This document shows positions 1 to 10,181 of a stretch of DNA of 10,428 bases, piece after piece. The stretch lies in assembly GCA_032249095.1 (NCBI GenBank), contig JAVVGN010000065.1, positions 1 through 10,428 of the forward strand, in the 5' to 3' direction. The stretch's first letter is position 1, and each line of letters opens with the position of its first letter. The position numbers and the translations under genes are program-made. The notes beneath the pieces were generated by a model that saw only the letters and a program-made list of their open reading frames with translations, had not been told where the DNA came from and ran no database searches. The stretch is from Candidatus Caldarchaeales archaeon. Its GTDB lineage: Archaea > Thermoproteota > Nitrososphaeria_A > Caldarchaeales > Calditenuaceae.

Positions 1-51
1 TATAGCTTTCACTTTAGGCAATCATGGACTTTCTGGTATATGTGGAATAAA

Positions 52-111
52 TAAAATAGAAAATATATGCCGATGGGGTATAAATAGAAAATAGTATATA
101 TGCCGGTGGGG
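52..111. repeat. Imperfect tandem direct repeat of two units: TAAAATAGAAAATATATGCCGATGGGG (52-78) and TAAATAGAAAATAGTATATATGCCGGTGGGG (81-111)
   Basis: Read directly. The units differ by a 1-nt indel, a 5-nt indel (GTATA) and one A/G substitution. The repeat lies immediately 3' of the minus-strand stop codon (115-117) of the IS110-like C-terminal ORF. On the minus strand each unit reads as a GC-rich clamp followed by a T-rich tract. Confidence 0.7.
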
Positions 112-114
112 CCG

Positions 115-456
115 TCAGGCTGGAGCGGCTAGTCCGGCCTCCTGGACTTCTATCGCTAGTCTCCTGATGTCTCCGAGGATTCTTTTCGCCACTCGTAGGA
201 TTGCCTGCCAACGCTTCCTACCCCTCCGACGATAGCTCTCATATACTGCTGGATATCTACGATGCTTGTTCAGAACCATTATATTGGCCAGAAGTATCAG
301 TAGTTGGCTCCGTAATCCTCTACCTCTCCAAGGACGCCTAAACAGCTCATAGCGCCTCTCCAACCCAGTTCTAGACAATGTCTTGAAGACGATGGAGTCG
401 TGGGAGACGATGTAGGCCAGTGGAGGACCCTTAAGACCTAGCCTCTCGACGGCCAT
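115..456 (-). pseudogene. IS110-family transposase, C-terminal domain fragment (113 aa), in a different frame from the N-terminal piece
   Basis: RGLRSQLLILLANIMVLNKHRRYPAVYESYRRRGRKRWQAILRVAKRILGDIRRL matches the IS110 C-terminal consensus (lR.aLy.aA......p....fY.r...rGK....A..AvARKL..i...ml). ERLGLKGPPLAYIV resembles the helix-hairpin-helix segment L..ipGiG..tAa.l. The fragment is separated from the N-terminal piece by a TAG stop, a frame change and an AT-rich 64-nt spacer (457-520). Confidence 0.55.
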
Positions 457-520
457 ACTGTAGAGCGGTAGTTACATATAGTCTTTTCATGAATCCTATC
501 GCCAGCCTATCGGCGTAGCG

Positions 521-976
521 CTAAAGAGTCCTGCGAGTCTCTACAGCTAATGGATCGTCTATTGTGCTCCGTGTATTTTTGGCCGCCTTCTTTATCCCAG
601 CCATCTCCACCCAAAGCTCCGCCAGAGCCCTAACCTCAAGCTCCAACGGAGAAGCATAGAGTGGCTGGAACAGACCTGGAGCCTTATAGAACATCTCTCT
701 CAGAGCCTTCACGTCGTTCTCATCCGTCTTCCTAAGACCATTGTTCCTTCTCACTTCGGAGACCGCTTTCAAATCTCCAAGCCTCAGGGACACCGCCCCG
801 TCAAGCCGCGTCATGGTTGGTAGGAGCCTCCTCAGATAACTATCAGCAACCACCATCTTCGGCCTCAACTTCTCAAACATCTCTAGGAAGTCGTTGAAGA
901 CCATCACCTCCTCGCCATCCTCCGGAAGAGCATAGACCCTCCCATGTCCGAAGTCAACGAAGACCCCACTCACCAC
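521..976 (-). pseudogene. IS110-family transposase, N-terminal DEDD (RuvC-like) domain fragment, 151 aa, ending at a TAG
   Basis: GVFVDFG matches the first catalytic-Asp segment (consensus GIDVsK). GLRKTDENDVKALREMF matches the conserved KTDxxDAxxLAxL motif. ELEVRALAELWVEMAGIKKAAKN matches the helix preceding the linker (R.L.r.R..Lv......N). The start is GTG at 976, with an SD-like GGAGGT (complement of 983-988) and a TATA-like GATAAAG (complement of 999-1005) upstream. Confidence 0.6.
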
Positions 977-1412
977 CTATCAACCTCCCTCCCCAAGCCT
1001 TTATCTCATATGGTCTCGCCACCAACTGAAACCTCACCACCATCCCACTCCATACCCATCACCCGCTCGGGGAAGAGCACCCACCGACCTCCACATATAA
1101 GGAGTCTGGCTCCAACAGCCGGGCCATCCCCAACCTAGACTCACTAAGAGCCGGACATACCAGAGAAAGAGATAGTAATATGGAAGGGGTGGTCTAAGCT
1201 CAAACATCCACTAGAGAACTACTAGAACACGGAAACATACCAATACAGCTATACCTATGGGGCAACGAGGTAATATTCAGGGTAAAGGACAGACAACACT
1301 ATACGGATACCCGGGGCCAGACTAAACCCACCTTAGTTCCCATCAAACTGTATTATTGAGGTCGCTATTAATCCAATTTATGTCGGTGGATTTGTTTTCT
1401 TCCTCATATTTC

Positions 1413-1436
1413 GCTCTTAAACAATGGGTTAAGAGC
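1413..1436. repeat. Perfect 8-bp inverted repeat / hairpin GCTCTTAA-(ACAATGGG)-TTAAGAGC
   Basis: Read directly: arms at 1413-1420 and 1429-1436 with an 8-nt loop. It abuts the TATA-like box of the lhr gene and sits at the probable outer boundary of the IS110-like element. Confidence 0.8.
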
Positions 1437-1445
1437 AAAATATCC
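1436..1445 (+). promoter_or_regulatory. TATA-like box CAAAATATCC for the Lhr helicase gene (leaderless-type spacing)
   Basis: The AT-rich element ends 24 nt upstream of the GTG at 1467. A nearly identical element, CAAAAATATC, sits at the same distance from the Fap7-like gene start (8532-8541). Confidence 0.45.
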
Positions 1446-1466
1446 GTGTGGGAGGCCTCTTAGGGG

Positions 1467-4295
1467 GTGGGGGAGGGTCCCGTGGAGGCTGAGGAGCTGC
1501 TGTGCCGCCCGGTCTTGGAGGCGGTTTACGAGAAGTTCGGGGGGCTGGCCGAGACCCAGAGGGCCGCCATCCCCCACATACTCAGGGGCGAGAACGTGCT
1601 CATCAGCTCGCCGACAGGCACGGGCAAGACCGAGGCCGCCCTCCTCCCAATACTACACTCCATCCTGACGGACCCCACAGTCCGGCCCATCTCCACCCTA
1701 TACATTACTCCCCTACGGGCGCTGAACAGGGACCTCCTCGACAGGCTCGAGTGGTGGTCTAGGAGACTCGACATCTCGGTCTCCGTGAGGCATGGCGACA
1801 CCCCGCAGCGGGAGAGACGTGTCCAGGCCATAAGCCCGCCCCAGATACTCATAGCCACACCCGAGGCGCTCCAGTCTCTCCTGATAGGGCGCGTCATGAG
1901 GACAGCCCTCTCTAACCTCAGATGGGTCATCGTAGACGAGGTGCATGAGCTGGCGACGGACAAGAGGGGGGCCCAACTGGCCGTCGCGCTCCAGAGAATC
2001 AGGAAGATCACGGGTAGGAGGTTCCAGCTCCTCGGCCTCTCCGCCACGGTAGGCGACCCCGGGGAGGTCGCGCGCTTCCTAGTCGGGCCCGCGGAGGGCT
2101 TTGTGGTTGTTGAGACTAGGATGCCGAGGGGGCTGGAGGTCGAGGTTGTCTTCCCCGAGACCGAGGCGCGGGATGTGGAGGTGGCCGGGGTTCTGGGGGT
2201 CGCGCCCGACGTCGCGGCCAGGATGAGGACAATCATGCAGCTTGTCTCGGAGCACTCATCAACACTTATCTTCACCAACACGAGGCCCCTCGCCGAGGCC
2301 CTCTCCAACAGGTTCAAGGCCTGGGACGAGGCCTTCCCAGTCTCGATCCATCACGGCTCCCTCTCCCGCGACCATAGGGTGAGGGCTGAGAAGGACCTGA
2401 AGTACGGCGAGATCCAGGGCCTGATCTGCACATCGAGCCTCGAGATGGGGATCGATGTGGGCAGGATAGACTTCTGCATCCAGTACAACTCGCCGCGAGA
2501 GGTCTCCCGCCTCGTCCAGCGTGTGGGCAGGAGCGGACACAGGATAGGGGGCGTCGCTAAGGGCGTCGTAATAGTCATGGACTCGGACGACGCGCTCGAG
2601 GCCCTCGTGATAGCCCGGAGGGCTAGGAGCGGCCAGCTCGAGAAGGTGAGGGTGGTGAAGAACAGCCTAGATGTCGCCATGCACCAGATAGCCGGCCTGC
2701 TCCTAGAGTATGGCCGGATAGAGAAGTCCGAAATCATGGAGCTCCTCAGACGGACCTACAACTTCTCAGACTTCAGCGAGGCCGACCTAGAAGCCCTGCT
2801 CCAGTACATGGGTACCCTCGGCATAGCGAGGGTCTCCGACGGCATAGTCCAGAAGCCCCCAAGAACCAAACGCCTCATCGAATACTACTTCGAGAACCTC
2901 TCGATGATTCCCGAAGAGAAGCAGTACCTCGTCGTGGAGGAGGAGAGCGGCGAGCCCGTCGGGATCCTTGACGAGGCCTTCGTCGCCGAGTACGGCGAGG
3001 TTGGCACCAAATTCATACTCGGAGGTAGGCCCTGGATCATCCTCAACCTCTCCGGGACCAGGATATACGTGGCGAGGCTTAAGGAAGGTGAGGGGGCCGT
3101 ACCCTCCTGGGTCGGGGACGAGATCCCGGTCCCCCTCGAAGTGGCTATGGAGGTTGGAGAGATAAGACGGCGCTACCAGGAGCACAGAGAGGGCGGCGCC
3201 TCGGCGGAGGAGGCCATAGCGGAGCTGGCTGACGAGTACCAGACCCCGCGCCACATCATGTCTAGGGCTCTGAGAGAGGTGGAGGAACATATCTCGCTCG
3301 GGATCCCCGTACCCACGGACAGGCGAATAGTGGTTGAGGAGGCCGACGAGTATGTCGTGGTCCACGTAACCGGCGGCCTCAGGATCAACAGGACCCTGGC
3401 CAGGCTCCTCACCGTGCACCTTGCGGAGAAGGTCGGGGCCCCGGTCTCGGCCCAGTCAGACCCCTACAGAATAGTTCTGAAGAGCAAGACCCTCTCGGCA
3501 GACAACATCCTGCAGGCACTCGGAGAGATCCTCAGTGAGAAGCTTCTGAGGAGGGCCGTGGAGACTTCGGGCGTCTTCAGGAGGAGGCTGGTCCACGTGG
3601 CTAGGAAGATGGGCGTGGTGGGGAAGGAGGTGAGTCTCCTAGACGTTAGCGCCCAGATGCTCGTCGAGTCCCTAAAGGGGACCCCTGTCTACGAGGAGGC
3701 CCTCAGATTCACGGTCTTCACCGACTATGATTGGGAGGGGGCCAAGTGGCTTATAGGCGAGGTGCAGGCGGGCAGGATCGAGACTGCCAAGTGCACGCTC
3801 GGAAGCCCCAGCCCCCTCGCCTCGCTCACCATCAGCAGATACCAGCACGAATACGAGGCCTACACACCCGAGAGGATCCACAGACTGGTCGTCAACGCCG
3901 TGAGGGCGAGGATAAACAGCGAGCTCGTCGTCCTAGCGTGCGTAGACTGCAGAAAATATGTCGAGACGGCTGAGGTCGGGGGCGTGGAGGGCAGGCCTTC
4001 CTGCCCCCTATGCGGGTCCCAAAGAATAGGCGTCGTGAGGACCGCCGGGAGGGAGGATGTCGAGAACGTTCTCCGCGGCAGGACCACCGAGTCTAGGAGG
4101 CTCTGGAGGGAGGCGGAGCGCACCTCCCCCCTTGTCGAGAAGTACGGCAAGGCGGCGGTGTTTGTCCTCTCGGCGAGAGGTATGAGTGTTAAGGACGCGG
4201 AGCAGCTTCTGAGCCGGGAGCCGAGGATCTCTCCCAGGCTGATCGAGGAGATAATCGAGCACGAGAAGAAGGCCCTGCTGAGGGAGTTCAGCTAG
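1467..4295 (+). CDS. lhr: Lhr-type (large helicase-related) ATP-dependent DEAD/DEAH-box SF2 helicase, 942 aa, with a C-terminal Cys4 zinc ribbon
   Basis: Motif I SPTGTGKT (1608-1631), Ia ITPLRAL, II DEVH (1935-1946), III SAT, then IFTNTR, HHGSLS, TSSLEMGIDVG and QRVGRSGH (motif VI). A long winged-helix/DEAD-associated region follows, as in Lhr-core. CxxC...CxxC lies at 3939-4013 (CVDC...CPLC). Size and domain order fit archaeal Lhr. Confidence 0.9.
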   Translation: MGEGPVEAEELLCRPVLEAVYEKFGGLAETQRAAIPHILRGENVLISSPTGTGKTEAALLPILHSILTDPTVRPISTLYITPLRALNRDLLDRLEWWSRRLDISVSVRHGDTPQRERRVQAISPPQILIATPEALQSLLIGRVMRTALSNLRWVIVDEVHELATDKRGAQLAVALQRIRKITGRRFQLLGLSATVGDPGEVARFLVGPAEGFVVVETRMPRGLEVEVVFPETEARDVEVAGVLGVAPDVAARMRTIMQLVSEHSSTLIFTNTRPLAEALSNRFKAWDEAFPVSIHHGSLSRDHRVRAEKDLKYGEIQGLICTSSLEMGIDVGRIDFCIQYNSPREVSRLVQRVGRSGHRIGGVAKGVVIVMDSDDALEALVIARRARSGQLEKVRVVKNSLDVAMHQIAGLLLEYGRIEKSEIMELLRRTYNFSDFSEADLEALLQYMGTLGIARVSDGIVQKPPRTKRLIEYYFENLSMIPEEKQYLVVEEESGEPVGILDEAFVAEYGEVGTKFILGGRPWIILNLSGTRIYVARLKEGEGAVPSWVGDEIPVPLEVAMEVGEIRRRYQEHREGGASAEEAIAELADEYQTPRHIMSRALREVEEHISLGIPVPTDRRIVVEEADEYVVVHVTGGLRINRTLARLLTVHLAEKVGAPVSAQSDPYRIVLKSKTLSADNILQALGEILSEKLLRRAVETSGVFRRRLVHVARKMGVVGKEVSLLDVSAQMLVESLKGTPVYEEALRFTVFTDYDWEGAKWLIGEVQAGRIETAKCTLGSPSPLASLTISRYQHEYEAYTPERIHRLVVNAVRARINSELVVLACVDCRKYVETAEVGGVEGRPSCPLCGSQRIGVVRTAGREDVENVLRGRTTESRRLWREAERTSPLVEKYGKAAVFVLSARGMSVKDAEQLLSREPRISPRLIEEIIEHEKKALLREFS

Positions 4296-4914
4296 TCCTC
4301 TCCAGCCCCTCTCCACCCTCCTCGGCCTGATCCTCGGCGGCCTGTTCGGGTGGTGCCCCACCGCTCCCCGGGGCCAGGGAGGCGAAGGCCTTCAGGAGCT
4401 CCTGTTTGTCAACCTCGACGAAGGTCCTCCAGCCAACGCTCAGGACACCGTCCTCGCTCCTCAAGAGGTAACCTCTCCTCGCCAGCCTCTCGAGAGTCGC
4501 CTCAACCCTCCACCTAGGATACTTCGACTCGAGGAGCTCGACAACCTCCTTCTCCGGAGAGCTGCCATTCCTGGAAAGCAGGTAGGCGAGTGTCGCCGAT
4601 AGTATGGCCAGCTCGTCTAGGCTGTATCCGAGCGTGGGTATGTCGGAGAGTGTGAGTGGGTCGGCGAGCACTATGTAGTACCTCGCCTTGTCGTAGTCGT
4701 TGGGCTCCGCATCGGGGTCTGGGACGACCTTCAGCCTAAGCCCTATCTGCCTGAGCCTCGAGTCGAGGGCGCTCATCACCTTAGGGAAGCTCTTCCCAAG
4801 CTTCCTCCTCAGCTCCCAGCCCCTGACGCCCGGGAGCCTGTGTCCTGAGGCCAGGATCATGGCCGCCGCCTGGGCCAGCCTTTTCTCCAGCTTACCAACC
4901 TCCTCCCCGCTCAA
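4288..4914 (-). CDS. Kite-like tandem winged-helix protein (Nse3/MAGE-like by eye; ScpB-like is the alternative), 208 aa, with an acidic C-terminal tail; third gene of the SMC-like operon
   Basis: The segments [22 protein letters not shown] ... [13 protein letters not shown] ... [27 protein letters not shown] ... [10 protein letters not shown] ... [17 protein letters not shown] follow the order and spacing of the two winged-helix halves of the MAGE homology domain, recalled from human NSMCE3/MAGE-G1. The TTG start at 4914 overlaps the upstream stop (TTGA). An alternative ATG lies 19 codons downstream. Confidence 0.5.
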   Translation of the reverse strand: [208 protein letters not shown]

Positions 4915-5660
4915 GCCGCCTCACCGCCCCTCCCGAGCGACACGACCAGCGAGGTCGTCCTCGGCTCATCCGACACCACGCCAGCCGCCCTGATCCATAT
5001 CTCGCGTCTCAGAGTATCAACCCTCACCTCAACCTCTCCCCTAGATATGAGGTAGCTGAGGAGGTAGGCCCTTCTCGCCCTCTCTCCCACACCCTTGGCG
5101 CCTATAAACTCCCAGTAATTTGTCCAGCCCCTCCTCGAGGAGAGCTCTGCGAGAAGCTCCTCAAGATCCGCGCTTATCTGTTTCTCGATCGCCTCGTAGG
5201 AGGGTTGCTGTGCGGATCCCACCGCCTCGCCCCAGAACTCGGCCAGCCCCCTCGCGGGTTTGGAGAGGAAGTGCTCGTAGCCCCGCATGAGAAGCTCCAC
5301 CGAGATCTGCTCGATCCTCGCAATAGGTCTCCAAGCCTGCAGGAAGGCTGAGACCAGGTCCCTGGGATCTGCAGAGAGGATCTTGGAGTAGACAAGGTTG
5401 GCGTCGATGAAGAGGGATGAGGCGCGGTCCCTTATCCATCTCTGCTGGAGCCCCAGGACCACCGTAACCCTGTAAAGCGTCTCAGCGTCAAGAACGACTA
5501 TCTCCGAGTCCCTCTCCCTCTCGATTATCTCCCTCAGCCTCTGGAGGAGCGAGGAGACGTCGACGCTGAAGGGGTCTAGCCTCCTCCCCTCTATCTCGCC
5601 CAGTATCGACATCATCCGGATGAGCTCCTCCCTGAAGACCCTGACCTTCCCGCTACTCAC
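4911..5660 (-). CDS. Kleisin-like protein (ScpA/Nse4-like), 249 aa; second gene of the SMC-like operon
   Basis: The N-terminal segment RLDPFSVDVSSLLQRLREII...VVLDAETLYRVTVVLGLQQRWIRDRAS fits the ScpA N-terminal helical pattern (idi.di.i..i..qYl.yl...l..a.e.l.maa.L...Ks). The C-terminal WTNYWEFIGAKGVGERARRAYLLSYLISRGEVEVRVD...REIWIR fits the kleisin C-terminal winged helix (f..l...r...v.tFLalLEL.k.g.v...q...geI.i). Its size and its position between the SMC-like and kite-like genes also fit. The GTG start at 5660 overlaps the SMC stop (GTGA). An alternative ATG lies 15 codons downstream. Confidence 0.6.
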   Translation of the reverse strand: MSSGKVRVFREELIRMMSILGEIEGRRLDPFSVDVSSLLQRLREIIERERDSEIVVLDAETLYRVTVVLGLQQRWIRDRASSLFIDANLVYSKILSADPRDLVSAFLQAWRPIARIEQISVELLMRGYEHFLSKPARGLAEFWGEAVGSAQQPSYEAIEKQISADLEELLAELSSRRGWTNYWEFIGAKGVGERARRAYLLSYLISRGEVEVRVDTLRREIWIRAAGVVSDEPRTTSLVVSLGRGGEAA

Positions 5661-7396
5661 GTCGCATCACTCATGGAGGTGACGAAGGACGACCCCCCCA
5701 CATTCTGAGTAATAATGAGGTTCACGCCGTCCGTCACAGGTATCCTCCCCGGCGTTATGAATAAGAACTGGACCGTCGGGTTGGCCTTAGCCATCTCCAC
5801 AAGTATCCTGGTCACCATCTCCCTGTTGAGTGGGTCGAGATGGACATCGAACTCGTCGACGGCCCTAATGGGCGACTTGACGTAGCTCTGGAGGGCGAGT
5901 AGGAAGGCGAGGGTCGAAACAACCCTCTCGCCGCCGCTGTGGGTCCTCGCGTCAACGAGGGTCGGCTCCATCCCCCTGAATCCCGCGAAGAGCTCCAGCC
6001 TGGCCGTAGGCGGATCGTCGAGCCCCCTGATCCTGATCATGCCCCGCCCCCCTACAGCCTCAAGAAGCCTCTGATAGACCGGGTTAATGTTCTCTAGGAT
6101 CTCCTCAAGCTTCTCCCTCCAGACCTGCCTCCTCCGCTCCACCTCCTCCAGAGCCCTCCTCACGTTCTCCTCTAGCTGCCTCGCCCTCGCCTCGACTTCC
6201 TTGAACCGCGAGTCGGCTAGGAAGAACATCGCCTCCGCATCGGGCGTCACCTTTCCTAGCGAGGCTATATTCAGGGTCACCATCTTCAGCTCCTCAAGGA
6301 TGTCGGAGGGCTCCCTAGTGGTCGGGACCTCCCCACCCCGCTGCCTCGCGGCCTCCCTCCTCTCCTCCAGCTCCCTCGAGAGGGACTCTATCTCCGACTG
6401 CGCCTCGGTTATCTCCCTCGACAGCTCTCCGATCCTGTAGCGCCTAATCCCCTCCTCGACCGAGACACTCACAAGCGAGTCTACGAGCTCCAGCACCTCC
6501 TCCGGGCTCCCGCCCCCATAGAGCCTTTCCCGAATCCCTCCCCTGAGGGCCCCCGCCTCCCGGCCAAGCCTCTCAGCCTCCTGCTCCAGGCCCTCCCTCT
6601 CCCTCAGGAGCCTCTCAAGAATACTCCTCTTCCTCTCGAGGCTCCTCAGGACTTGGTTGGCGAGGCTCCATGCATATTCCAGCTCGAGGCTGTTCTTCCG
6701 CTCCTCGAGGCTCCGGAGCTGCTGAAGCTTCTGGAGCTCCCTCCTCCAGTATTCGACCGCCTCCCCAGCCTCCGCCAGCAGCCTCTTGACAGAGGCCTCC
6801 TCAGACCTCAGGCTGTTGAGCCGCGCCTCTGCGTCCATAATCCTCTCCCTTAGGCTCGCGATCCCCACGGCGTCCTCCATGGCCCTGAGCTTCTCCACGT
6901 CATCCCTGGCCGCGAAGTTCTCGATCATGTTCTGGTGCATTATGATGAGGGCGTTGTTCGGGTTTATTCCGAGCCCCCGGAGAAGCTCCTCAAGCTCCGC
7001 CTTGGGGGTGAACCTATTGTTAACATAGTGCCAGTACTCCCCGTTCTTCTTGATGTAGCGCGTGATGGCGATCTCGTCGGACTTGATGTGCCTAAACGGC
7101 CTCTCACCGTTGACCGGCGAATTGTCAAGAATCACGGTGAGCCTCGCCGCCTCCTTACCCCTCCTGATCAGGTCGCTGAGCCTCGCCCCCCTCTCGGTGT
7201 AGGTCTGGCCAAGGGCCACCGCGAGGCCGAGGAGGATCGAGGATTTCCCGGAACCGTTGGGGCCCGTAATAACGTTGAGTCCCGGCTCGAGCCTAATCCT
7301 AGAGTACTCGTGGGACATGAAGTTTTCAAGTATGATCTCGCGTACGAAGGTCGGCCTTACACTCGTCTCAGCCTCGCCAAGCCGCGCCCTTGCCAA
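5657..7396 (-). CDS. Short hinge-less SMC-family ATPase with Smc5/6-like head motifs (archaea-specific SMC-related protein, possibly ClsN/coalescin- or Sph-like), 579 aa
   Basis: N-terminal head: FVREIILENFMSHEYSRIRLEPGLNVITGPNGSGKSSILLGLAVALG, with Walker A at 7238-7264. Q-loop: IIMHQNMIENF. About 130 aa of heptad-rich coiled coil lies on each side of a short apex (RLYGGGSPEE, ~6497-6526). Signature motif SGGE at 5927-5938. Walker B/D-loop VDEFDVHLD, with DEFD at 5846-5857. The H-loop position reads QFLFITPG. TTG at 7396 is the only possible start upstream of the conserved NFMSH strand. Confidence 0.85.
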   Translation of the reverse strand: MARARLGEAETSVRPTFVREIILENFMSHEYSRIRLEPGLNVITGPNGSGKSSILLGLAVALGQTYTERGARLSDLIRRGKEAARLTVILDNSPVNGERPFRHIKSDEIAITRYIKKNGEYWHYVNNRFTPKAELEELLRGLGINPNNALIIMHQNMIENFAARDDVEKLRAMEDAVGIASLRERIMDAEARLNSLRSEEASVKRLLAEAGEAVEYWRRELQKLQQLRSLEERKNSLELEYAWSLANQVLRSLERKRSILERLLREREGLEQEAERLGREAGALRGGIRERLYGGGSPEEVLELVDSLVSVSVEEGIRRYRIGELSREITEAQSEIESLSRELEERREAARQRGGEVPTTREPSDILEELKMVTLNIASLGKVTPDAEAMFFLADSRFKEVEARARQLEENVRRALEEVERRRQVWREKLEEILENINPVYQRLLEAVGGRGMIRIRGLDDPPTARLELFAGFRGMEPTLVDARTHSGGERVVSTLAFLLALQSYVKSPIRAVDEFDVHLDPLNREMVTRILVEMAKANPTVQFLFITPGRIPVTDGVNLIITQNVGGSSFVTSMSDAT

Positions 7397-7410
7397 TAAT
7401 CCCCGAGAAA

Positions 7411-7439
7411 AATCCTCCGGAGCCTCAATAAAGAGGATT
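7411..7439 (-). promoter_or_regulatory. Candidate promoter of the SMC-like operon: TATA-like TTTATT (complement of 7427-7432) bracketed by a 7-bp inverted repeat AATCCTC / GAGGATT
   Basis: The TATA-like element lies 31-36 nt upstream of the TTG start at 7396. The inverted-repeat arms at 7411-7417 and 7433-7439 were read directly. An adjacent bulged 8-bp hairpin lies at 7437-7463. Confidence 0.4.
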
Positions 7440-7526
7440 CCCCACCCCTCCGAAAGTGGGAATACGTCGGGATGACTCTGAGGAGGTACAGTTTAGGCGG
7501 CGGGGCTCGATGGGGAGGGGAAGGGA

Positions 7527-7568: not shown

Positions 7569-7994
7569 ATGGAGATTGACGTCAAGACGGCGATCGAGAG
7601 GTTCAGGCTCTTCGTGATCTATAACACTTGCCTCTCCCACATACCGAAGGGCTATTTGAAGGATCCTACGATCTTTCCCGAGAGGGATGCCGACAAGGGC
7701 GAGATCTACGTCGAGGCGGCGAGTAAGATCGAGCTTGCGAGGATCAGGGATATACGGTTCGTGAAGGCCGCCGACATCCTAGGCGTCATATACAGGTCCA
7801 AGACCGGGAACACCAACCTGAAGTGGAGGCAGATTAGGGGGAATATTGGGAGGCTCACGGGTGTAGCCTCGCCAAACTCCATAGTGAACCTGCTTGAGGC
7901 TAAAGTCTTGACCAAGGAGTATATAGAGGAGTTTCTCCGGCATAAGTCGGCCGGCGCGAAGACGGAGGCCGAGAACACAGCGGCGAAGGTCTAG
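7569..7994 (+). CDS. Hypothetical protein, 141 aa, no family recognised
   Basis: ATG start with a good TATA box upstream. Codon usage (AGG Arg, ATA Ile, GC-rich third positions) matches neighbouring genes. No recognisable motif. The 3' end overlaps the convergent archaemetzincin gene by 4 nt. Confidence 0.55.
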   Translation: MEIDVKTAIERFRLFVIYNTCLSHIPKGYLKDPTIFPERDADKGEIYVEAASKIELARIRDIRFVKAADILGVIYRSKTGNTNLKWRQIRGNIGRLTGVASPNSIVNLLEAKVLTKEYIEEFLRHKSAGAKTEAENTAAKV

Positions 7995-8509
7995 GACAGC
8001 AGTCTCGACCTACAGGCCTTGCAGGGCTCGACACCCTTTAAGTCCGTGTCCTCGACTGTGTTGCTGAAGAACATGACGCACCGCGAGTCTACGCAGTGTC
8101 GGAGCCCGAGCAGGTGGCCGACCTCGTGGACGACCTCCTTCCTCAGCCTCTCTATGTATTTTGCCACGTCGGTTGTCCGGAGCCTGTAAACGGAGACGAC
8201 GGCCGTGTCCCTGAAGGCGAGGCCGAAGCAGTAGTTATACCTGTCGAAGTAGATGTCCAGCCCGGTGATGTGTAGTTGGAGGCCGTTCCAGGAGCCGTGT
8301 CTGGAGAGGCTTTGGACCGTCTTGTAGGCGTCGGCCTGCCTCCGGGCGGGGTTGATGCTCTTAGCCGCGGGGTCCTCCTCCAGCTCCTGCTCCTCGGTCC
8401 TCAGCCCGAGCACATCCTCAACCGCCCTCGCCGCTATCCTCCTCTCAGACCTGAGGCTCCCCGTGGAGGTGATCAGGACGCTCCCGCTCCTCGACAGCGA
8501 GGGCATCAA
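7991..8509 (-). CDS. amzA: Archaemetzincin (peptidase family M54 zinc metalloprotease)
   Basis: HEVGHLLGLRHC is the HExxHxxGxxH metzincin zinc site followed by Cys. It is followed by a Cys-rich second metal site, CVDSRCVMFF...CKAC. The ~170-aa length is typical. The track start is TTG at 8509; the adjacent ATG at 8504-8506 is the more likely start. Confidence 0.85.
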   Translation of the reverse strand: MMPSLSRSGSVLITSTGSLRSERRIAARAVEDVLGLRTEEQELEEDPAAKSINPARRQADAYKTVQSLSRHGSWNGLQLHITGLDIYFDRYNYCFGLAFRDTAVVSVYRLRTTDVAKYIERLRKEVVHEVGHLLGLRHCVDSRCVMFFSNTVEDTDLKGVEPCKACRSRLLS

Positions 8510-8565: not shown

Positions 8566-9150
8566 GTGGCGCCGTCGGTATACATTTTAGCAGGTACGCC
8601 GGGTGTCGGGAAGTCCACGGTCTCGCGGGCCCTTGCGTCTAGGATGGGGGTGTGGCTGCTTGAGCTGGCCGACATAGTGGGGCCTAGGGCCGTGGAGGTC
8701 TCGGCGAGCGCCCTCTCGGCGCGGGCCGGCTCGATGATAAGGAGGGGTGGGAGAGACGCCGTAATAGCCACTCATATCGTCTTCAAGCCCCGCTCAATAC
8801 CTGTCCGGGCGGCTGTGGTTCTGAGGCGGGACCCCTACAGGCTTCTCGAGGAGCTGGCTATGCGAGGCTATCCCGAGGCCAAGGTGCTGGAGAACGTCGA
8901 GGCGGAGCTCCTCGGCATCGTCTACTGGGAGGCGCTATCGAGGTTCGGCGCTGGCAGGGTGTTCCAGATAGATACAACGGGGAGGGGGGGTGAGGAGGTT
9001 GTGGAGCTTGCCTACGAGGCTCTCACTGGTGGGTGGAGGGGTGAGGACATCGACTGGATAAGTAGGCTGGAGTCTGAGGGGAGGCTTGAAGGGCTCGTGA
9101 CAAGGCTCTCGACTAGGGGAAGAGCCTTAACGCACTACAGAGAGTCGTAG
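8566..9150 (+). CDS. Fap7 / adenylate kinase isoenzyme 6 (AK6)-like P-loop NTPase, 194 aa
   Basis: N-terminal P-loop ILAGTPGVGKSTVSRALA. The motif VVLRRDPYRLLEELAMRGYPEAKVLENVEAELLGIVYWEA matches the AK6/Fap7 pattern VLR.dp..L..RL..RGY...K..eN.e.Ei......EA. The size fits archaeal Fap7. GTG start. Confidence 0.75.
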   Translation: MAPSVYILAGTPGVGKSTVSRALASRMGVWLLELADIVGPRAVEVSASALSARAGSMIRRGGRDAVIATHIVFKPRSIPVRAAVVLRRDPYRLLEELAMRGYPEAKVLENVEAELLGIVYWEALSRFGAGRVFQIDTTGRGGEEVVELAYEALTGGWRGEDIDWISRLESEGRLEGLVTRLSTRGRALTHYRES

Positions 9151-10181
9151 ACGCGCACAGCCTCCCTCGCTATTGCATCAGCCATCTCGAGGGTGCTCGC
9201 AGTCCCCCCTAGGTCATAGGTCACCGTCTTGCCCTCGGCGATAACCTTCTCGGTCGCTGCGAAGATGCTTCTCGCGTGGCGCTGGAAGCCTAGGTACTCG
9301 AGCATCCAGGCCGCTGATAGGATCGTCGCGGTGGGGTTTACCTTGTACTGGCCCTTGTATTTGGGGGCGCTTCCGTGGGCCGGCTCGAACATGGCGTAAC
9401 GGTCGCCTATGTTGGCAGAGTAGACTAGCCCTATGTTGCCTATGAGGGATGAGCAGAGCTCGGAGATCACGTCCATGAATAGGTTGGTGCTTAGGAGGAC
9501 TGTCTGGTTGAAGCGCTGGGGGTTCTTGACGAGCTGCTGCGCCATGTTATCGATGTAATACTCCTCGAGCTCTATGCCGGGAAACTCTTTCGAGACGGCC
9601 TCAACTCCGCCCCAGAACATGCTGTCCGTCAGCCTCAGAATGTTTCTCTTAGTTATCGCTATCACTTTGCCATACCCCCGCCTCACAGCCTCTATGAAGG
9701 CGACACGCGCTATCCTCTCGGAACCGGTCCTAGTGATCTTCCTTATGGCGATCGCGGTGTTCTGGTCGAGTAGGGCCTCGGCTCCTATGTAGAGCCCCTC
9801 CGTGGCCTCCCTGACGCATAGAAAGTCCACCTCGCCCAGCGGCCCGACCCTGCCCTTAAAGGTCTTGATCGGCCTCAAGTTGGCGTATAGGTCCATCCTC
9901 CTCCTAATGTTGACCGCGACGCTCCCAGGAGCGTTTGGGTCGGGGGGTGTGGTGGTTGGGGCTTTGAGGCATGCGTCGCTGTTTAGTATGGCATCCCACG
10001 TCTCGGGCGGGATGAGGTTCGGGAGGGCTGGCCTCCCCGCTGATACCCACCACTCGTATCCCGCGTCGCACCTGACTACCTCCAGATCCGGCTTGAGGGC
10101 CTCGATAACCCTCAGCGCCGCCTCAGCGAGCTCGGGGCCAGTTCCATCCCCATTAATAACGACAACCCTCTTTCTACCCAA
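9135..10181 (-). CDS. Isocitrate/isopropylmalate dehydrogenase family protein (beta-decarboxylating dehydrogenase), 348 aa
   Basis: Family motifs in order: VVVINGDGTGPE, NIRRRMDLYANLRP, REATEGLY, ITKRNIL, YYIDNMAQQLVKNP, NLFMDVISE (variant of N-x-x-GD-I/Y-x-SD), FEPAHGSAPKYKG, NPTATILSAAWMLEYLG. TTG start at 10181 with a TATA-like TAAATA about 33 nt upstream. No leuCD or other pathway genes are present in the window, so substrate specificity is not assigned. Confidence 0.85.
   Translation of the reverse strand: MGRKRVVVINGDGTGPELAEAALRVIEALKPDLEVVRCDAGYEWWVSAGRPALPNLIPPETWDAILNSDACLKAPTTTPPDPNAPGSVAVNIRRRMDLYANLRPIKTFKGRVGPLGEVDFLCVREATEGLYIGAEALLDQNTAIAIRKITRTGSERIARVAFIEAVRRGYGKVIAITKRNILRLTDSMFWGGVEAVSKEFPGIELEEYYIDNMAQQLVKNPQRFNQTVLLSTNLFMDVISELCSSLIGNIGLVYSANIGDRYAMFEPAHGSAPKYKGQYKVNPTATILSAAWMLEYLGFQRHARSIFAATEKVIAEGKTVTYDLGGTASTLEMADAIAREAVRVYDSL

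What the first reader, a model, noticed from the sequence alone, without database searches (positions are those of the whole stretch)
4288..4914. Nse3/MAGE-like kite candidate encoded next to an archaeal kleisin
By eye, the 208-aa protein aligns block by block with the MAGE homology domain, recalled from human NSMCE3. [22 protein letters not shown] aligns with [36 protein letters not shown] aligns with [39 protein letters not shown] aligns with [44 protein letters not shown] aligns with FWGLRSYYETSKMKVLKFA. It lacks the motifs I associate with ScpB. MAGE proteins are generally treated as a eukaryotic family, so a prokaryotic homologue in an operon with an Smc6-like ATPase would be evolutionarily informative. 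The acidic tail ([16 protein letters not shown]) is an extra feature and could mimic DNA or regulate the ATPase.
Basis: partly seen in the sequence, partly recalled or inferred. Interest (0 to 1): 0.65.

Follow-up and report, generated by a model that had tools for sequence, protein, structure and literature searches.

The report
Archaeal Nse1/Nse3-like kite protein
This 208-residue archaeal protein is the small winged-helix "kite" subunit of an SMC5/6-like chromosome-maintenance complex and a distant relative of human MAGE/NSMCE3 and NSE1, but the family, and the direct orthologue of this operon, were already described in a 2024-25 preprint.

Summary
The ORF at 4288-4914 (minus strand, 208 aa) is real and conserved. 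It is the last gene of a three-gene operon: SMC-like ATPase (579 aa), kleisin (249 aa), then this protein. AlphaFold2 predicts two winged-helix domains and a disordered tail. The best Foldseek matches in the PDB are human NSMCE3/MAGE-G1, Xenopus Nse3 and human NSE1 (E about 1e-6 to 1e-5). MukE and JetB rank lower, and no ScpB appears in the top 50. The neighbouring kleisin is Nse4-like, and the ATPase heads match yeast Smc5 and Smc6 best. The trio is colinear in 66 of 79 archaeal genome loci.

The protein is as close to Nse1 as to Nse3. The acidic tail is not conserved across the family. The result is not new: van Hooff et al. (bioRxiv 10.1101/2024.01.07.573240) list the orthologous HR02 operon as an SMC5/6-related SMC, Nse4-related kleisin and Nse1,3-related kite.

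Two features are not discussed in the papers I read. The SMC partner is always short and has no hinge. An aLhr1 helicase gene is a conserved convergent neighbour.

The parts
4288..4914 (-). Kite subunit gene (208 aa, TTG start), of the archaeal Nse1/Nse3-related type. This is the finding.
   Evidence: ORF. 76 homologues. AF2 pLDDT 82.5 with a tandem winged-helix fold. Foldseek top hits NSMCE3, Nse3 and NSE1. Profile against PDB: Nse3 5.6e-5, NSMCE3 1.9e-4, NSE1 4.5e-4.
4660..4914 (-). Residues 1-85: N-terminal helix plus winged-helix A. Includes the most conserved family motif, [11 protein letters not shown] (residues 25-35).
   Evidence: AF2 secondary structure H3-22, H32-56, E59-64, E78-83. 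Invariant columns. Aligns to Nse3 residues about 4-90.
4372..4659 (-). Residues 86-181: winged-helix B plus two C-terminal helices. Contains the RGY (147-149) and GWRTFVEVD (161-169) motifs, which correspond to the MAGE WGPR...E motif.
   Evidence: AF2 elements H99-114 through H170-180. Y149, R163 and E167 are invariant across 42 diverse members. Pfam MAGE and Nse1 partial hits fall here. HMMER alignment to NSMCE3.
4291..4371 (-). Residues 182-208: disordered acidic tail, variable between lineages.
   Evidence: pLDDT below 50. Tail length 0-34 aa, median net charge -2, no sequence conservation, absent in several lineages.
4911..5660 (-). Kleisin gene (249 aa), Nse4-like. The conserved central motif AWRPI.R.EQ...LLRGYEHFLS.P is the presumed kite-binding region.
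   Evidence: No direct Pfam hit for the window protein. Homologue P0228 carries PF08743 Nse4_C, and 3/17 homologues hit Nse4_C, best E 9.9e-7. Profile against PDB: top hit is EID3 (which I take, from my own knowledge, to be the human NSE4 paralogue NSMCE4B) at E 0.053, then Pyrococcus ScpA C-terminal winged-helix domain. AF2 shows N-terminal helices and a C-terminal winged helix. Foldseek top hits are chains F and G of yeast Smc5/6 holo-complexes, then the ScpA and Scc1 C-terminal winged-helix domains.
5657..7396 (-). SMC-like ABC ATPase (579 aa), Smc5/6-related. It has short coiled-coil arms and no hinge domain.
   Evidence: Pfam SMC_N 1.8e-32 and no SMC_hinge hit. PDB: yeast Smc5 8e-39, Smc6 1.2e-26, Pyrococcus Smc 4e-25. 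The heads align at 11-240 and 380-550. Walker A (GPNGSGKSS), Q-loop (MHQN), signature (SGGER) and Walker B/D-loop (VDEFDVHLD) motifs are conserved.
1467..4295 (+). aLhr1-type Lhr helicase (942 aa), convergent with the kite gene and overlapping its 3' end by 8 nt. It is a conserved neighbour. Whether it functions with the complex is unproven.
   Evidence: Pfam DEAD, Helicase_C, WH_Lhr and DEAD_assoc. Directly convergent in 30/79 loci across several phyla and in divergent members. A C-terminal CxxC..CxxC motif is present in 44/44.
7397..7440 (-). Putative operon promoter region, with a TATA-like TTTATT at 7427-7432, about 31-36 nt upstream of the SMC start codon. Seen by eye only.
   Evidence: Sequence inspection. 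Not tested. The available promoter scanner covers only sigma-70 promoters.

Best explanation
[quoted passage not shown] It belongs to the archaeal 'Nse1,3-related' kite clade, which is homologous to eukaryotic Nse1 and Nse3/MAGE and predates their duplication.

Inferred mechanism: two copies form a homodimer, because only one kite gene is present. The dimer binds the conserved central stretch of the Nse4-like kleisin. With ATP-engaged heads, the kite dimer helps to clamp double-stranded DNA on top of the heads and modulates the ATPase, as described for Nse1-Nse3-Nse4 in yeast Smc5/6.

Shown here: the gene, its conservation, the tandem winged-helix fold, significant sequence and structure similarity to Nse3, MAGE and Nse1, the conserved operon with a kleisin and an Smc5/6-like ATPase, and orthology to a published example. 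Inferred, not shown: dimerisation, kleisin binding, DNA binding and the cellular role (probably DNA repair or chromosome maintenance).
For: ORF and operon with 4-nt overlaps. AF2 model with pLDDT 82.5 and two winged-helix domains. Foldseek against the PDB: 5hvq_D NSMCE3 1.1e-6, 7dg2_C Nse3 5.3e-6 (TM 0.52), 5hvq_C NSE1 8.2e-6 (TM 0.50) and MAGE-A4 1e-4 rank ahead of MukE (4e-4) and JetB (1e-3), with no ScpB in the top 50. HMM profile of 42 family members against the PDB: Nse3 5.6e-5, NSMCE3 1.9e-4 (query 4-178), NSE1 4.5e-4, yeast Nse3 0.024. Pfam sub-threshold hits to SMC_Nse1 and MAGE in the window protein, and in 11 and 13 of 20 homologues. One homologue is named 'MAGE domain-containing protein' by NCBI and another carries PF07574. 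Kleisin evidence. The SMC heads match Smc5/Smc6 best. The trio is colinear in 66/79 genome loci from Caldarchaeales, Bathyarchaeia, Methanomethylicia, Hydrothermarchaeota and Thermoplasmata, and in more divergent metagenome members. The orthologous operon of Calditenuaceae archaeon HR02 (BEHE01000017.1 genes _4, _3, _2, which is my locus L006; kite 77% identical) is listed by van Hooff et al. as an SMC5/6-related SMC, Nse4-related kleisin and Nse1,3-related kite. The same genome has a separate condensin-like SMC, kleisin and ScpB-like cluster (text).
Against: The window protein does not reach Pfam's curated thresholds for MAGE or Nse1. A single profile pass over 1.84 billion representative proteins recovered only archaeal relatives and no eukaryotic MAGE or Nse1. 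The E-values linking the family to Nse3 and Nse1 are significant only for the PDB-sized database. No physical interaction, dimer or DNA binding was tested. The kleisin model has low confidence (pLDDT 64), and its Foldseek and profile matches are individually weak (E about 5e-3 to 0.05). The SMC partner lacks a hinge, so the complex may not work as a canonical SMC ring. In 3 of 79 loci the kite gene stands alone.
Confidence: 0.9

Rival explanations
1. It is an ScpB-type kite of the canonical archaeal Smc-ScpA(B) condensin-like complex.
For: ScpB is the kite usually expected in prokaryotes. 2 of 42 distant family members give weak Pfam SMC_ScpB hits, best E 0.0014. All kites share the tandem winged-helix fold.
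Against: No ScpB hit for the window protein or for 0/20 close homologues. No ScpB chain in the profile search of the PDB at E up to 10, nor in the Foldseek top 50. The partner ATPase is Smc5/6-like and half the length of Smc. The orthologous HR02 genome carries a separate SMC, kleisin and ScpB-like cluster elsewhere.
Confidence: 0.03
2. It is a stand-alone winged-helix transcription regulator (MarR, PadR, TrmB or BlaI type) that merely neighbours an SMC-like gene.
For: Weak Pfam hits of some homologues to TrmB (6/20, best 0.0018) and Penicillinase_R (6/20). In 3 loci the gene is not next to an SMC or kleisin gene.
Against: Those hits cover only one winged helix and rank below Nse1 and MAGE. 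Foldseek places MarR-like regulators far below the kites. Translationally coupled operon position is kept in 66/79 loci across phyla. The protein has two winged-helix domains in the kite arrangement.
Confidence: 0.03
3. The operon is a Wadjet/MksBEF-like or Lamassu-like anti-plasmid or anti-virus defence module, and the protein is its JetB/MukE-type kite.
For: JetB and MukE appear among the Foldseek hits at E 4e-4 to 1e-3. The short SMC gives PADLOC hits to LmuB and mad3 at 1e-25 to 1e-29.
Against: The kite and kleisin have no PADLOC hits. There is no JetD/MksG-type nuclease or other effector gene in the operon. The SMC scores higher against Smc5 (8e-39) and SMC_prok_A (2.6e-52). The locus sits among housekeeping genes with conserved synteny in many species rather than in variable islands. 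No relatives were found on viral contigs.
Confidence: 0.04

Closest known systems
Archaeal 'Nse1,3-related' kites of SMC5/6-related operons (van Hooff, Raas, Tromer & Eme, bioRxiv 10.1101/2024.01.07.573240)
   Same: Same family and same operon order (SMC, kleisin, kite). The listed example BEHE01000017.1_2 from Calditenuaceae archaeon HR02 is the 77%-identical orthologue.
   Different: Nothing essential. The window protein is another member, from a related Caldarchaeales (Aigarchaeota) lineage, with a somewhat longer acidic tail.
Eukaryotic Nse3 / MAGE homology domain (NSMCE3/MAGE-G1, PDB 5hvq, 7dg2; Pfam PF01454)
   Same: Tandem winged-helix fold. Colinear sequence similarity over both domains, including the P-x-x-x-x-E-L block in WH-A and the W(GP)R...E...LLKF block in WH-B. 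Partner of an Nse4-type kleisin and an Smc5/6-type ATPase.
   Different: Only 14-17% identity. Below the Pfam gathering score. Shorter, with none of the N-terminal extensions of MAGEs. Presumably a homodimer rather than an Nse1-Nse3 heterodimer. No link to RING ligases.
Eukaryotic Nse1 (PDB 5hvq_C, 7dg2_A; Pfam PF07574)
   Same: Comparable structural and profile similarity to that for Nse3 (Foldseek 8.2e-6, TM 0.50; HMM 4.5e-4). It is the best Pfam hit of the window protein.
   Different: No C-terminal RING-like zinc domain. The protein ends after WH-B with a disordered tail.
Bacterial and archaeal ScpB, MukE and JetB kites
   Same: Same superfamily architecture (two winged helices, kleisin partner, gene in an SMC operon).
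   Different: More distant. MukE and JetB rank below Nse1/Nse3 in Foldseek, and ScpB is not detected by the profile or in the top 50. The partner SMC is of the Smc5/6 type.

Membership tests
Kite superfamily (kleisin-interacting tandem winged-helix elements) | Two consecutive winged-helix domains | tested here: met
   AF2 model (pLDDT 82.5) with WH-A at residues about 1-85 and WH-B at about 86-181. Foldseek top hits are all kites: Nse3, Nse1, MAGE, MukE, JetB.
Kite superfamily (kleisin-interacting tandem winged-helix elements) | Encoded with, and partner of, a kleisin and an SMC ATPase | tested here: met
   Overlapping genes in one operon. Colinear trio in 66/79 loci. Kleisin identity supported.
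Kite superfamily (kleisin-interacting tandem winged-helix elements) | Dimer that binds the central region of the kleisin | not testable with these tools
   No multimer prediction or experiment was available. Only indirect support: a single kite gene, and a conserved central kleisin motif that is disordered in the monomer model.
Archaeal Nse1,3-related kite clade (van Hooff et al.) | Orthology to listed clade members and adjacency to an Nse4-related kleisin | tested here: met
   77% identity and identical gene order to BEHE01000017.1_2/_3/_4, listed as the Nse1,3-related kite, Nse4-related kleisin and SMC5/6-related SMC.
MAGE homology domain / Nse3 (Pfam PF01454) | Score at or above the Pfam gathering threshold (25 bits) | tested here: not met
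   14.7 bits, E 0.026, matching only WH-B. 13/20 homologues give sub-threshold hits, best E 7e-4.
MAGE homology domain / Nse3 (Pfam PF01454) | Colinear similarity over both winged helices to solved Nse3/MAGE proteins | tested here: met
   Family profile against the PDB: 7dg2_C 5.6e-5 (query 3-150), 5hvq_D 1.9e-4 (query 4-178). Foldseek 1.1e-6 and 5.3e-6.
Nse1 (Pfam PF07574) | Score at or above the Pfam gathering threshold (23.3 bits) | tested here: not met
   16.5 bits, E 0.0081 for the window protein. Some homologues do better (best E 2.6e-6; P0039 carries PF07574).
Nse1 (Pfam PF07574) | C-terminal RING-like zinc-binding domain | tested here: not met
   The sequence ends after WH-B with a 27-residue acidic tail that contains no cysteine or histidine.
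ScpB (Pfam PF04079) | Detectable similarity to ScpB profiles or structures | tested here: not met
   No hit at E up to 1. 0/20 close homologues and 2/42 distant ones. No ScpB in the PDB profile searches or in the Foldseek top 50.
Wadjet JetB / MksE / MukE defence or condensin kites | Match to defence-system models and presence of the cognate partners (JetD/MksG nuclease, MukB-type SMC) | tested here: not met
   No PADLOC hit for the kite or kleisin. No nuclease gene in the operon. MukE and JetB rank below Nse1/Nse3.

The most novel reading that the evidence does not exclude
The archaeal SMC5/6-related complex to which this kite belongs is not a canonical SMC ring. Its ATPase is a hingeless mini-SMC of 565-698 aa. 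I estimate its arms at about 18-25 nm from the helix lengths; this figure is not a tool result. The three-gene operon is also evolutionarily locked, tail to tail, to an aLhr1 helicase gene across several archaeal phyla. On this reading the complex is a compact kleisin-kite DNA clamp that works with a repair helicase, so the functional link of Smc5/6 to helicases and DNA repair would predate eukaryotes. Neither feature is discussed in the papers I could read.
Probability: 0.25. Interest if true: 0.6.

Novelty: already known. Interest (0 to 1): 0.3.

Why it matters
MAGE/Nse3 and Nse1 were long regarded as eukaryote-specific. An archaeal homologue in an operon with an Nse4-like kleisin and an Smc5/6-like ATPase shows that the SMC5/6 module was inherited from archaea. 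That conclusion has already been drawn by Yoshinaga & Inagaki 2021 for the SMC subunit and by van Hooff et al. 2024/25 for the kleisin and kite, so this window adds another well-supported member rather than a discovery. What remains of value is practical. The proteins are still unnamed or labelled 'hypothetical protein' or 'AAA family ATPase' in the databases. The complex is small (579 + 249 + 208 aa) and thermophilic, which would make it an attractive minimal system for structural and biochemical work on Smc5/6-type DNA clamping. The missing hinge and the conserved aLhr1 neighbour are open questions that can be tested.

Tried and rejected
- The single-sequence phmmer search of the kite against the PDB gave only chance hits. 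A family profile was needed.
- The profile search of 1.84 billion representative proteins returned 136 hits, all archaeal-type short proteins or fragments. The few longer hits (P0183, P0184, P0194) are chimeric gene calls, not eukaryotic MAGEs. A jackhmmer-style link to eukaryotes was therefore not obtained at that database size.
- Alignment A2 was too diverse to seed the genome scan, so A1 was used.
- The kleisin alone gave nothing in Pfam, NCBIfam or the PDB. Only its homologues, its profile and its model gave Nse4, ScpA and Scc1 signals.
- The ASRP/coalescin family was rejected for the ATPase: 54 bits against a 300-bit cut-off for NF045487, compared with 178 bits for SMC_prok_A.
- PADLOC gave no hits for the kite and kleisin, and the viral-contig scan was negative.
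- No tRNA or Rfam family was found in the window.
- Context look-ups for the most divergent relatives (P0168, P0142, P0088) landed on contigs too short to show the SMC gene.
It cannot be excluded for this particular lineage.
- I could not run true profile-profile (HHpred) comparisons against the Pfam MAGE and ScpB models, or a multimer structure prediction.


Full report
**1. What is in the window**

The window is archaeal and moderately GC-rich (about 0.6).

- On the minus strand, three ORFs overlap by 4 nt each:
  - 5657-7396, 579 aa, Pfam SMC_N E=1.8e-32
  - 4911-5660, 249 aa
  - 4288-4914, 208 aa, TTG start (the finding)
- The 208-aa ORF starts inside the sequence GCT-TGA, where TTGA holds both its start and the upstream stop.
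- A 942-aa Lhr-type helicase gene (1467-4295, plus strand) converges on the 208-aa ORF and overlaps its 3' end by 8 nt.

**2. The 208-aa protein is a real, conserved protein with a tandem winged-helix fold**

- It has 76 homologues (E down to 1e-121) in the 5.8-billion-protein collection. Nearly all that carry a source name are Aigarchaeota, Caldarchaeales or 'Nitrososphaerota' MAGs, plus one Thermoplasmata.
- One homologue is already named 'MAGE domain-containing protein' by NCBI, and another carries a precomputed PF07574 (SMC_Nse1) hit.
- An exhaustive HMM pass over 1.84 billion representative proteins found 136 relatives, all short archaeal-type proteins or fragments.
- AlphaFold2 with a 20-sequence alignment gives mean pLDDT 82.5 and pTM 0.69. 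The model has an N-terminal helix and WH-A (residues about 1-85), WH-B plus two C-terminal helices (about 86-181), and a disordered tail (184-204, pLDDT below 50).

**3. It resembles Nse3/MAGE and Nse1 more than any other kite or winged-helix family**

*Structure search (Foldseek against the PDB), in rank order:*

| Chain | Protein | E-value | Note |
|---|---|---|---|
| 5hvq_D | human MAGE-G1/NSMCE3 | 1.1e-6 | |
| 7dg2_C | Xenopus Nse3 | 5.3e-6 | TM 0.52 |
| 5hvq_C | human NSE1 | 8.2e-6 | TM 0.50 |
| 2wa0 | MAGE-A4 | 1e-4 | |
| 3rpu_E | MukE | 4e-4 | |
| 8i13, 7tve | yeast Smc5/6 kite chains | 5e-4 to 8e-4 | |
| 8dk1_E | JetB | 1.1e-3 | |

Cullin, ESCRT-II and MarR-like winged helices come only after these. 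No ScpB chain appears in the top 50.

*Sequence profiles:*

- The window protein alone gives sub-threshold Pfam hits to SMC_Nse1 (E 0.0081) and MAGE (E 0.026).
- Among 20 homologues, 11 hit Nse1 (best 2.6e-6), 13 hit MAGE and none hits ScpB.
- A profile of 20 close homologues finds Xenopus Nse3 as the top PDB hit at E=0.06.
- A broader 42-member profile (A2) gives these PDB hits:
  - Nse3 at 5.6e-5
  - human NSMCE3 at 1.9e-4, over query positions 4-178
  - human NSE1 at 4.5e-4
  - yeast Nse3 at 0.024
- The one hit above these is a designed helical-repeat protein. It is a repeat artefact in which no single stretch passes the threshold.
They add a fifth block, PGVRGWEL, which aligns to the P-I-K-R-A-D-I region of Nse3.

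*What this shows:* homology to the Nse1/Nse3/MAGE group is supported by independent sequence and structure evidence. The protein is about equally close to Nse1 and Nse3, and it lacks the RING-like domain of Nse1. It therefore looks like a pre-duplication kite.

*Caveats:* the window protein does not reach Pfam's gathering scores. The E-values are significant for a PDB-sized search only. One profile pass over the large library did not reach eukaryotic proteins.

**4. The neighbours are an Nse4-like kleisin and an Smc5/6-like ATPase**

*Kleisin (249 aa):*

- On its own it has no family hit.
- One homologue carries PF08743 (Nse4_C), and 3 of 17 homologues hit Nse4_C (best E 9.9e-7).
- The three best PDB hits of its profile are EID3 (E 0.053) and two Pyrococcus ScpA C-terminal winged-helix domain chains. 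From my own knowledge, not from a tool output, EID3 is the human NSE4 paralogue NSMCE4B.
- The AF2 monomer model has low confidence overall (pLDDT 64), which I regard as usual for a kleisin modelled without its partners (my own expectation, not tested here). It shows N-terminal helices, including a long helix at 59-83, and a C-terminal winged helix at 155-225.
- Its best Foldseek matches are chains F and G of the yeast Smc5/6 holo-complexes 7qcd and 7tve (E about 5e-3). By elimination and size these should be Nse4, but I did not verify the chain identity. The next matches are the C-terminal winged-helix domains of ScpA and Scc1.

*ATPase (579 aa):*

- Its best PDB matches are yeast Smc5 (8e-39), yeast and human Smc6 (about 1e-26) and then Pyrococcus Smc (4e-25).
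- All ABC and SMC catalytic motifs are conserved.
- It is not an ASRP/coalescin: 54 bits against a 300-bit cut-off.

**5. The linkage is conserved**

- A scan of one genome per GTDB species returned 79 loci.
- Six-frame ORF calling and phmmer found the colinear SMC, kleisin, kite trio in 66 of them.
- The lineages are Caldarchaeales, Bathyarchaeia, Methanomethylicia, Hydrothermarchaeota and Thermoplasmata. A Hadarchaeales contig holds the kite and Lhr but is too short to show the rest.
- More divergent members, about 30% identical, have the same layout.
- Three loci have the kite alone, between arginyl-tRNA synthetase and a UbiA prenyltransferase.
- No relatives are on viral contigs, and neither the kite nor the kleisin matches any defence-system model.

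**6. Comparison with the literature**

- Yoshinaga & Inagaki 2021 (PMC8665677) found archaeal SMC homologues sister to SMC5+6, but could not place Nse1, Nse3 or ScpB.
- Van Hooff, Raas, Tromer & Eme (bioRxiv 10.1101/2024.01.07.573240; the held version is dated May 2025) describe three kite archetypes, including an archaea-only 'Nse1/3-like' one.
- Their Supplementary Table 3 lists, for Candidatus Calditenuaceae archaeon HR02, genes BEHE01000017.1_4/_3/_2 as the SMC5/6-related SMC, Nse4-related kleisin and Nse1,3-related kite. It also lists a separate cluster, BEHE01000012.1_19/18/17, for the condensin-like set.
- My locus L006 is that contig. Its Lhr, kite, kleisin and SMC genes map to genes _1 to _4, and its kite is 77% identical to the window protein.

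The window therefore holds an orthologue of a published example.

**7. How it most likely works**

By homology with Nse1-Nse3-Nse4 and other kite-kleisin modules, I infer the following:

- The kite forms a homodimer bound to the conserved central part of the kleisin. The motif AWRPI.R.EQ...LLRGYEHFLS.P is disordered in the monomer model.
- The kleisin bridges two ATPase heads.
- The kite and kleisin help to clamp DNA on the ATP-engaged heads, as seen in the DNA-bound yeast Smc5/6 structure (PMC9191643) and as suggested by DNA binding of Nse3 (PMC4756808). Both papers are known to me only from the listing.

None of these interactions was tested here.

**8. The acidic tail**

- The tail is real in this protein, with a net charge of about -6.
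- Across 78 distinct family tails it is 0-34 residues long, unconserved in sequence and has a median net charge of -2.
- It is missing in the Thermoplasmata, Hydrothermarchaeota and Methanomethylicia members.
- It is strongly acidic only in the window's own Calditenuaceae/HR02-like subclade.
- A lineage-specific regulatory role cannot be excluded, but the tail is not a family feature.

**9. Side observations not covered by the papers I read**

(a) *The SMC partner is always short: 565-698 aa.*

- The heads align to Smc5 residues 35-266 and 877-1050, which leaves only about 140 residues of coiled coil with a Gly/Pro turn.
- There is no SMC_hinge Pfam hit in the window protein, nor in the precomputed Pfam lists of the 120 listed homologues. 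There is also no CxxC hook.
- The longer Bathyarchaeia versions differ only by extra coiled coil at the apex.
- Neither paper comments on this. Asgard members were not sampled here.

(b) *The convergent helicase is of the aLhr1 type.*

- A C-terminal CxxC..CxxC motif is present in 44 of 44 full-length neighbours.
- It lies directly tail to tail with the kite gene in 30 of 79 loci. These include Hydrothermarchaeota, Hadarchaeales and Thermoplasmata, and the divergent metagenome members also show it.
- A dedicated Lhr study reported no conserved aLhr1 neighbourhood (PMC8301817).
- Whether this reflects function, retained synteny or co-transfer is open.

**10. Verdict**

- Novelty is 'already known'.
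- Interest is modest, because the evolutionary point has been published.
- The remaining interest lies in the hingeless mini-SMC architecture and the aLhr1 association.

Noticed in passing
window 5657-7396 (-); loci L001-L091: The Smc5/6-like ATPase partnered with this kite is always short (565-698 aa) and has no hinge domain or zinc hook. Only about 140 residues of coiled coil with a G/P turn separate the two head halves. The papers describing the archaeal SMC5/6-related clade do not mention this.
   Followed up: partly
window 1467-4295 (+): An aLhr1-type Lhr helicase (C-terminal CxxC..CxxC motif) converges on the kite gene with overlapping 3' ends. The same tail-to-tail arrangement is found in 30/79 genome loci across several archaeal phyla and in divergent metagenome relatives, although a published Lhr survey found no conserved aLhr1 neighbourhood.
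   Followed up: partly
window 7569-7994 (+): A 141-aa ORF with no Pfam or PADLOC hit lies divergent from the SMC gene. It is conserved in that position in 26/79 loci, all Caldarchaeales. Function unknown.
   Followed up: partly
L016 7962-8576, also L017 and L019: In three Caldarchaeales genomes the kite gene stands alone, between arginyl-tRNA synthetase and a UbiA prenyltransferase with a DNA ligase nearby. No SMC or kleisin gene lies within 8 kb.
   Followed up: partly
window 4291-4371 (-): The acidic C-terminal tail is disordered. Across the family it varies in length (0-34 aa) and sequence. It is strongly acidic only in the window's own subclade and is absent in several lineages.
   Followed up: yes
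window 1-1466: The left end has lower GC (0.47-0.54). Two minus-strand ORFs (115-456, 113 aa, not scanned; 521-976, 151 aa, no Pfam or PADLOC hit) are followed by a 490-nt gap before the Lhr gene. No tRNA or Rfam family was found there.
   Followed up: no
proteins P0183, P0184, P0194 (representative library): A few database 'relatives' of the kite are chimeric gene calls, with PolX, alanine dehydrogenase or PTA domains fused to short kite fragments. They are probably assembly or gene-calling artefacts rather than real fusions.
   Followed up: partly
window 7991-8509 (-), 8566-9150 (+), 9135-10181 (-): Housekeeping neighbours: an archaemetzincin-like peptidase (Pfam M54), an AAA_18 kinase-like protein and, by my reading of the translation, an isocitrate/isopropylmalate-dehydrogenase-like ORF that I did not scan. 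They recur near the operon in many Caldarchaeales loci (25, 13 and 18 of 79), which fits a core-genome location rather than a mobile island.
   Followed up: partly
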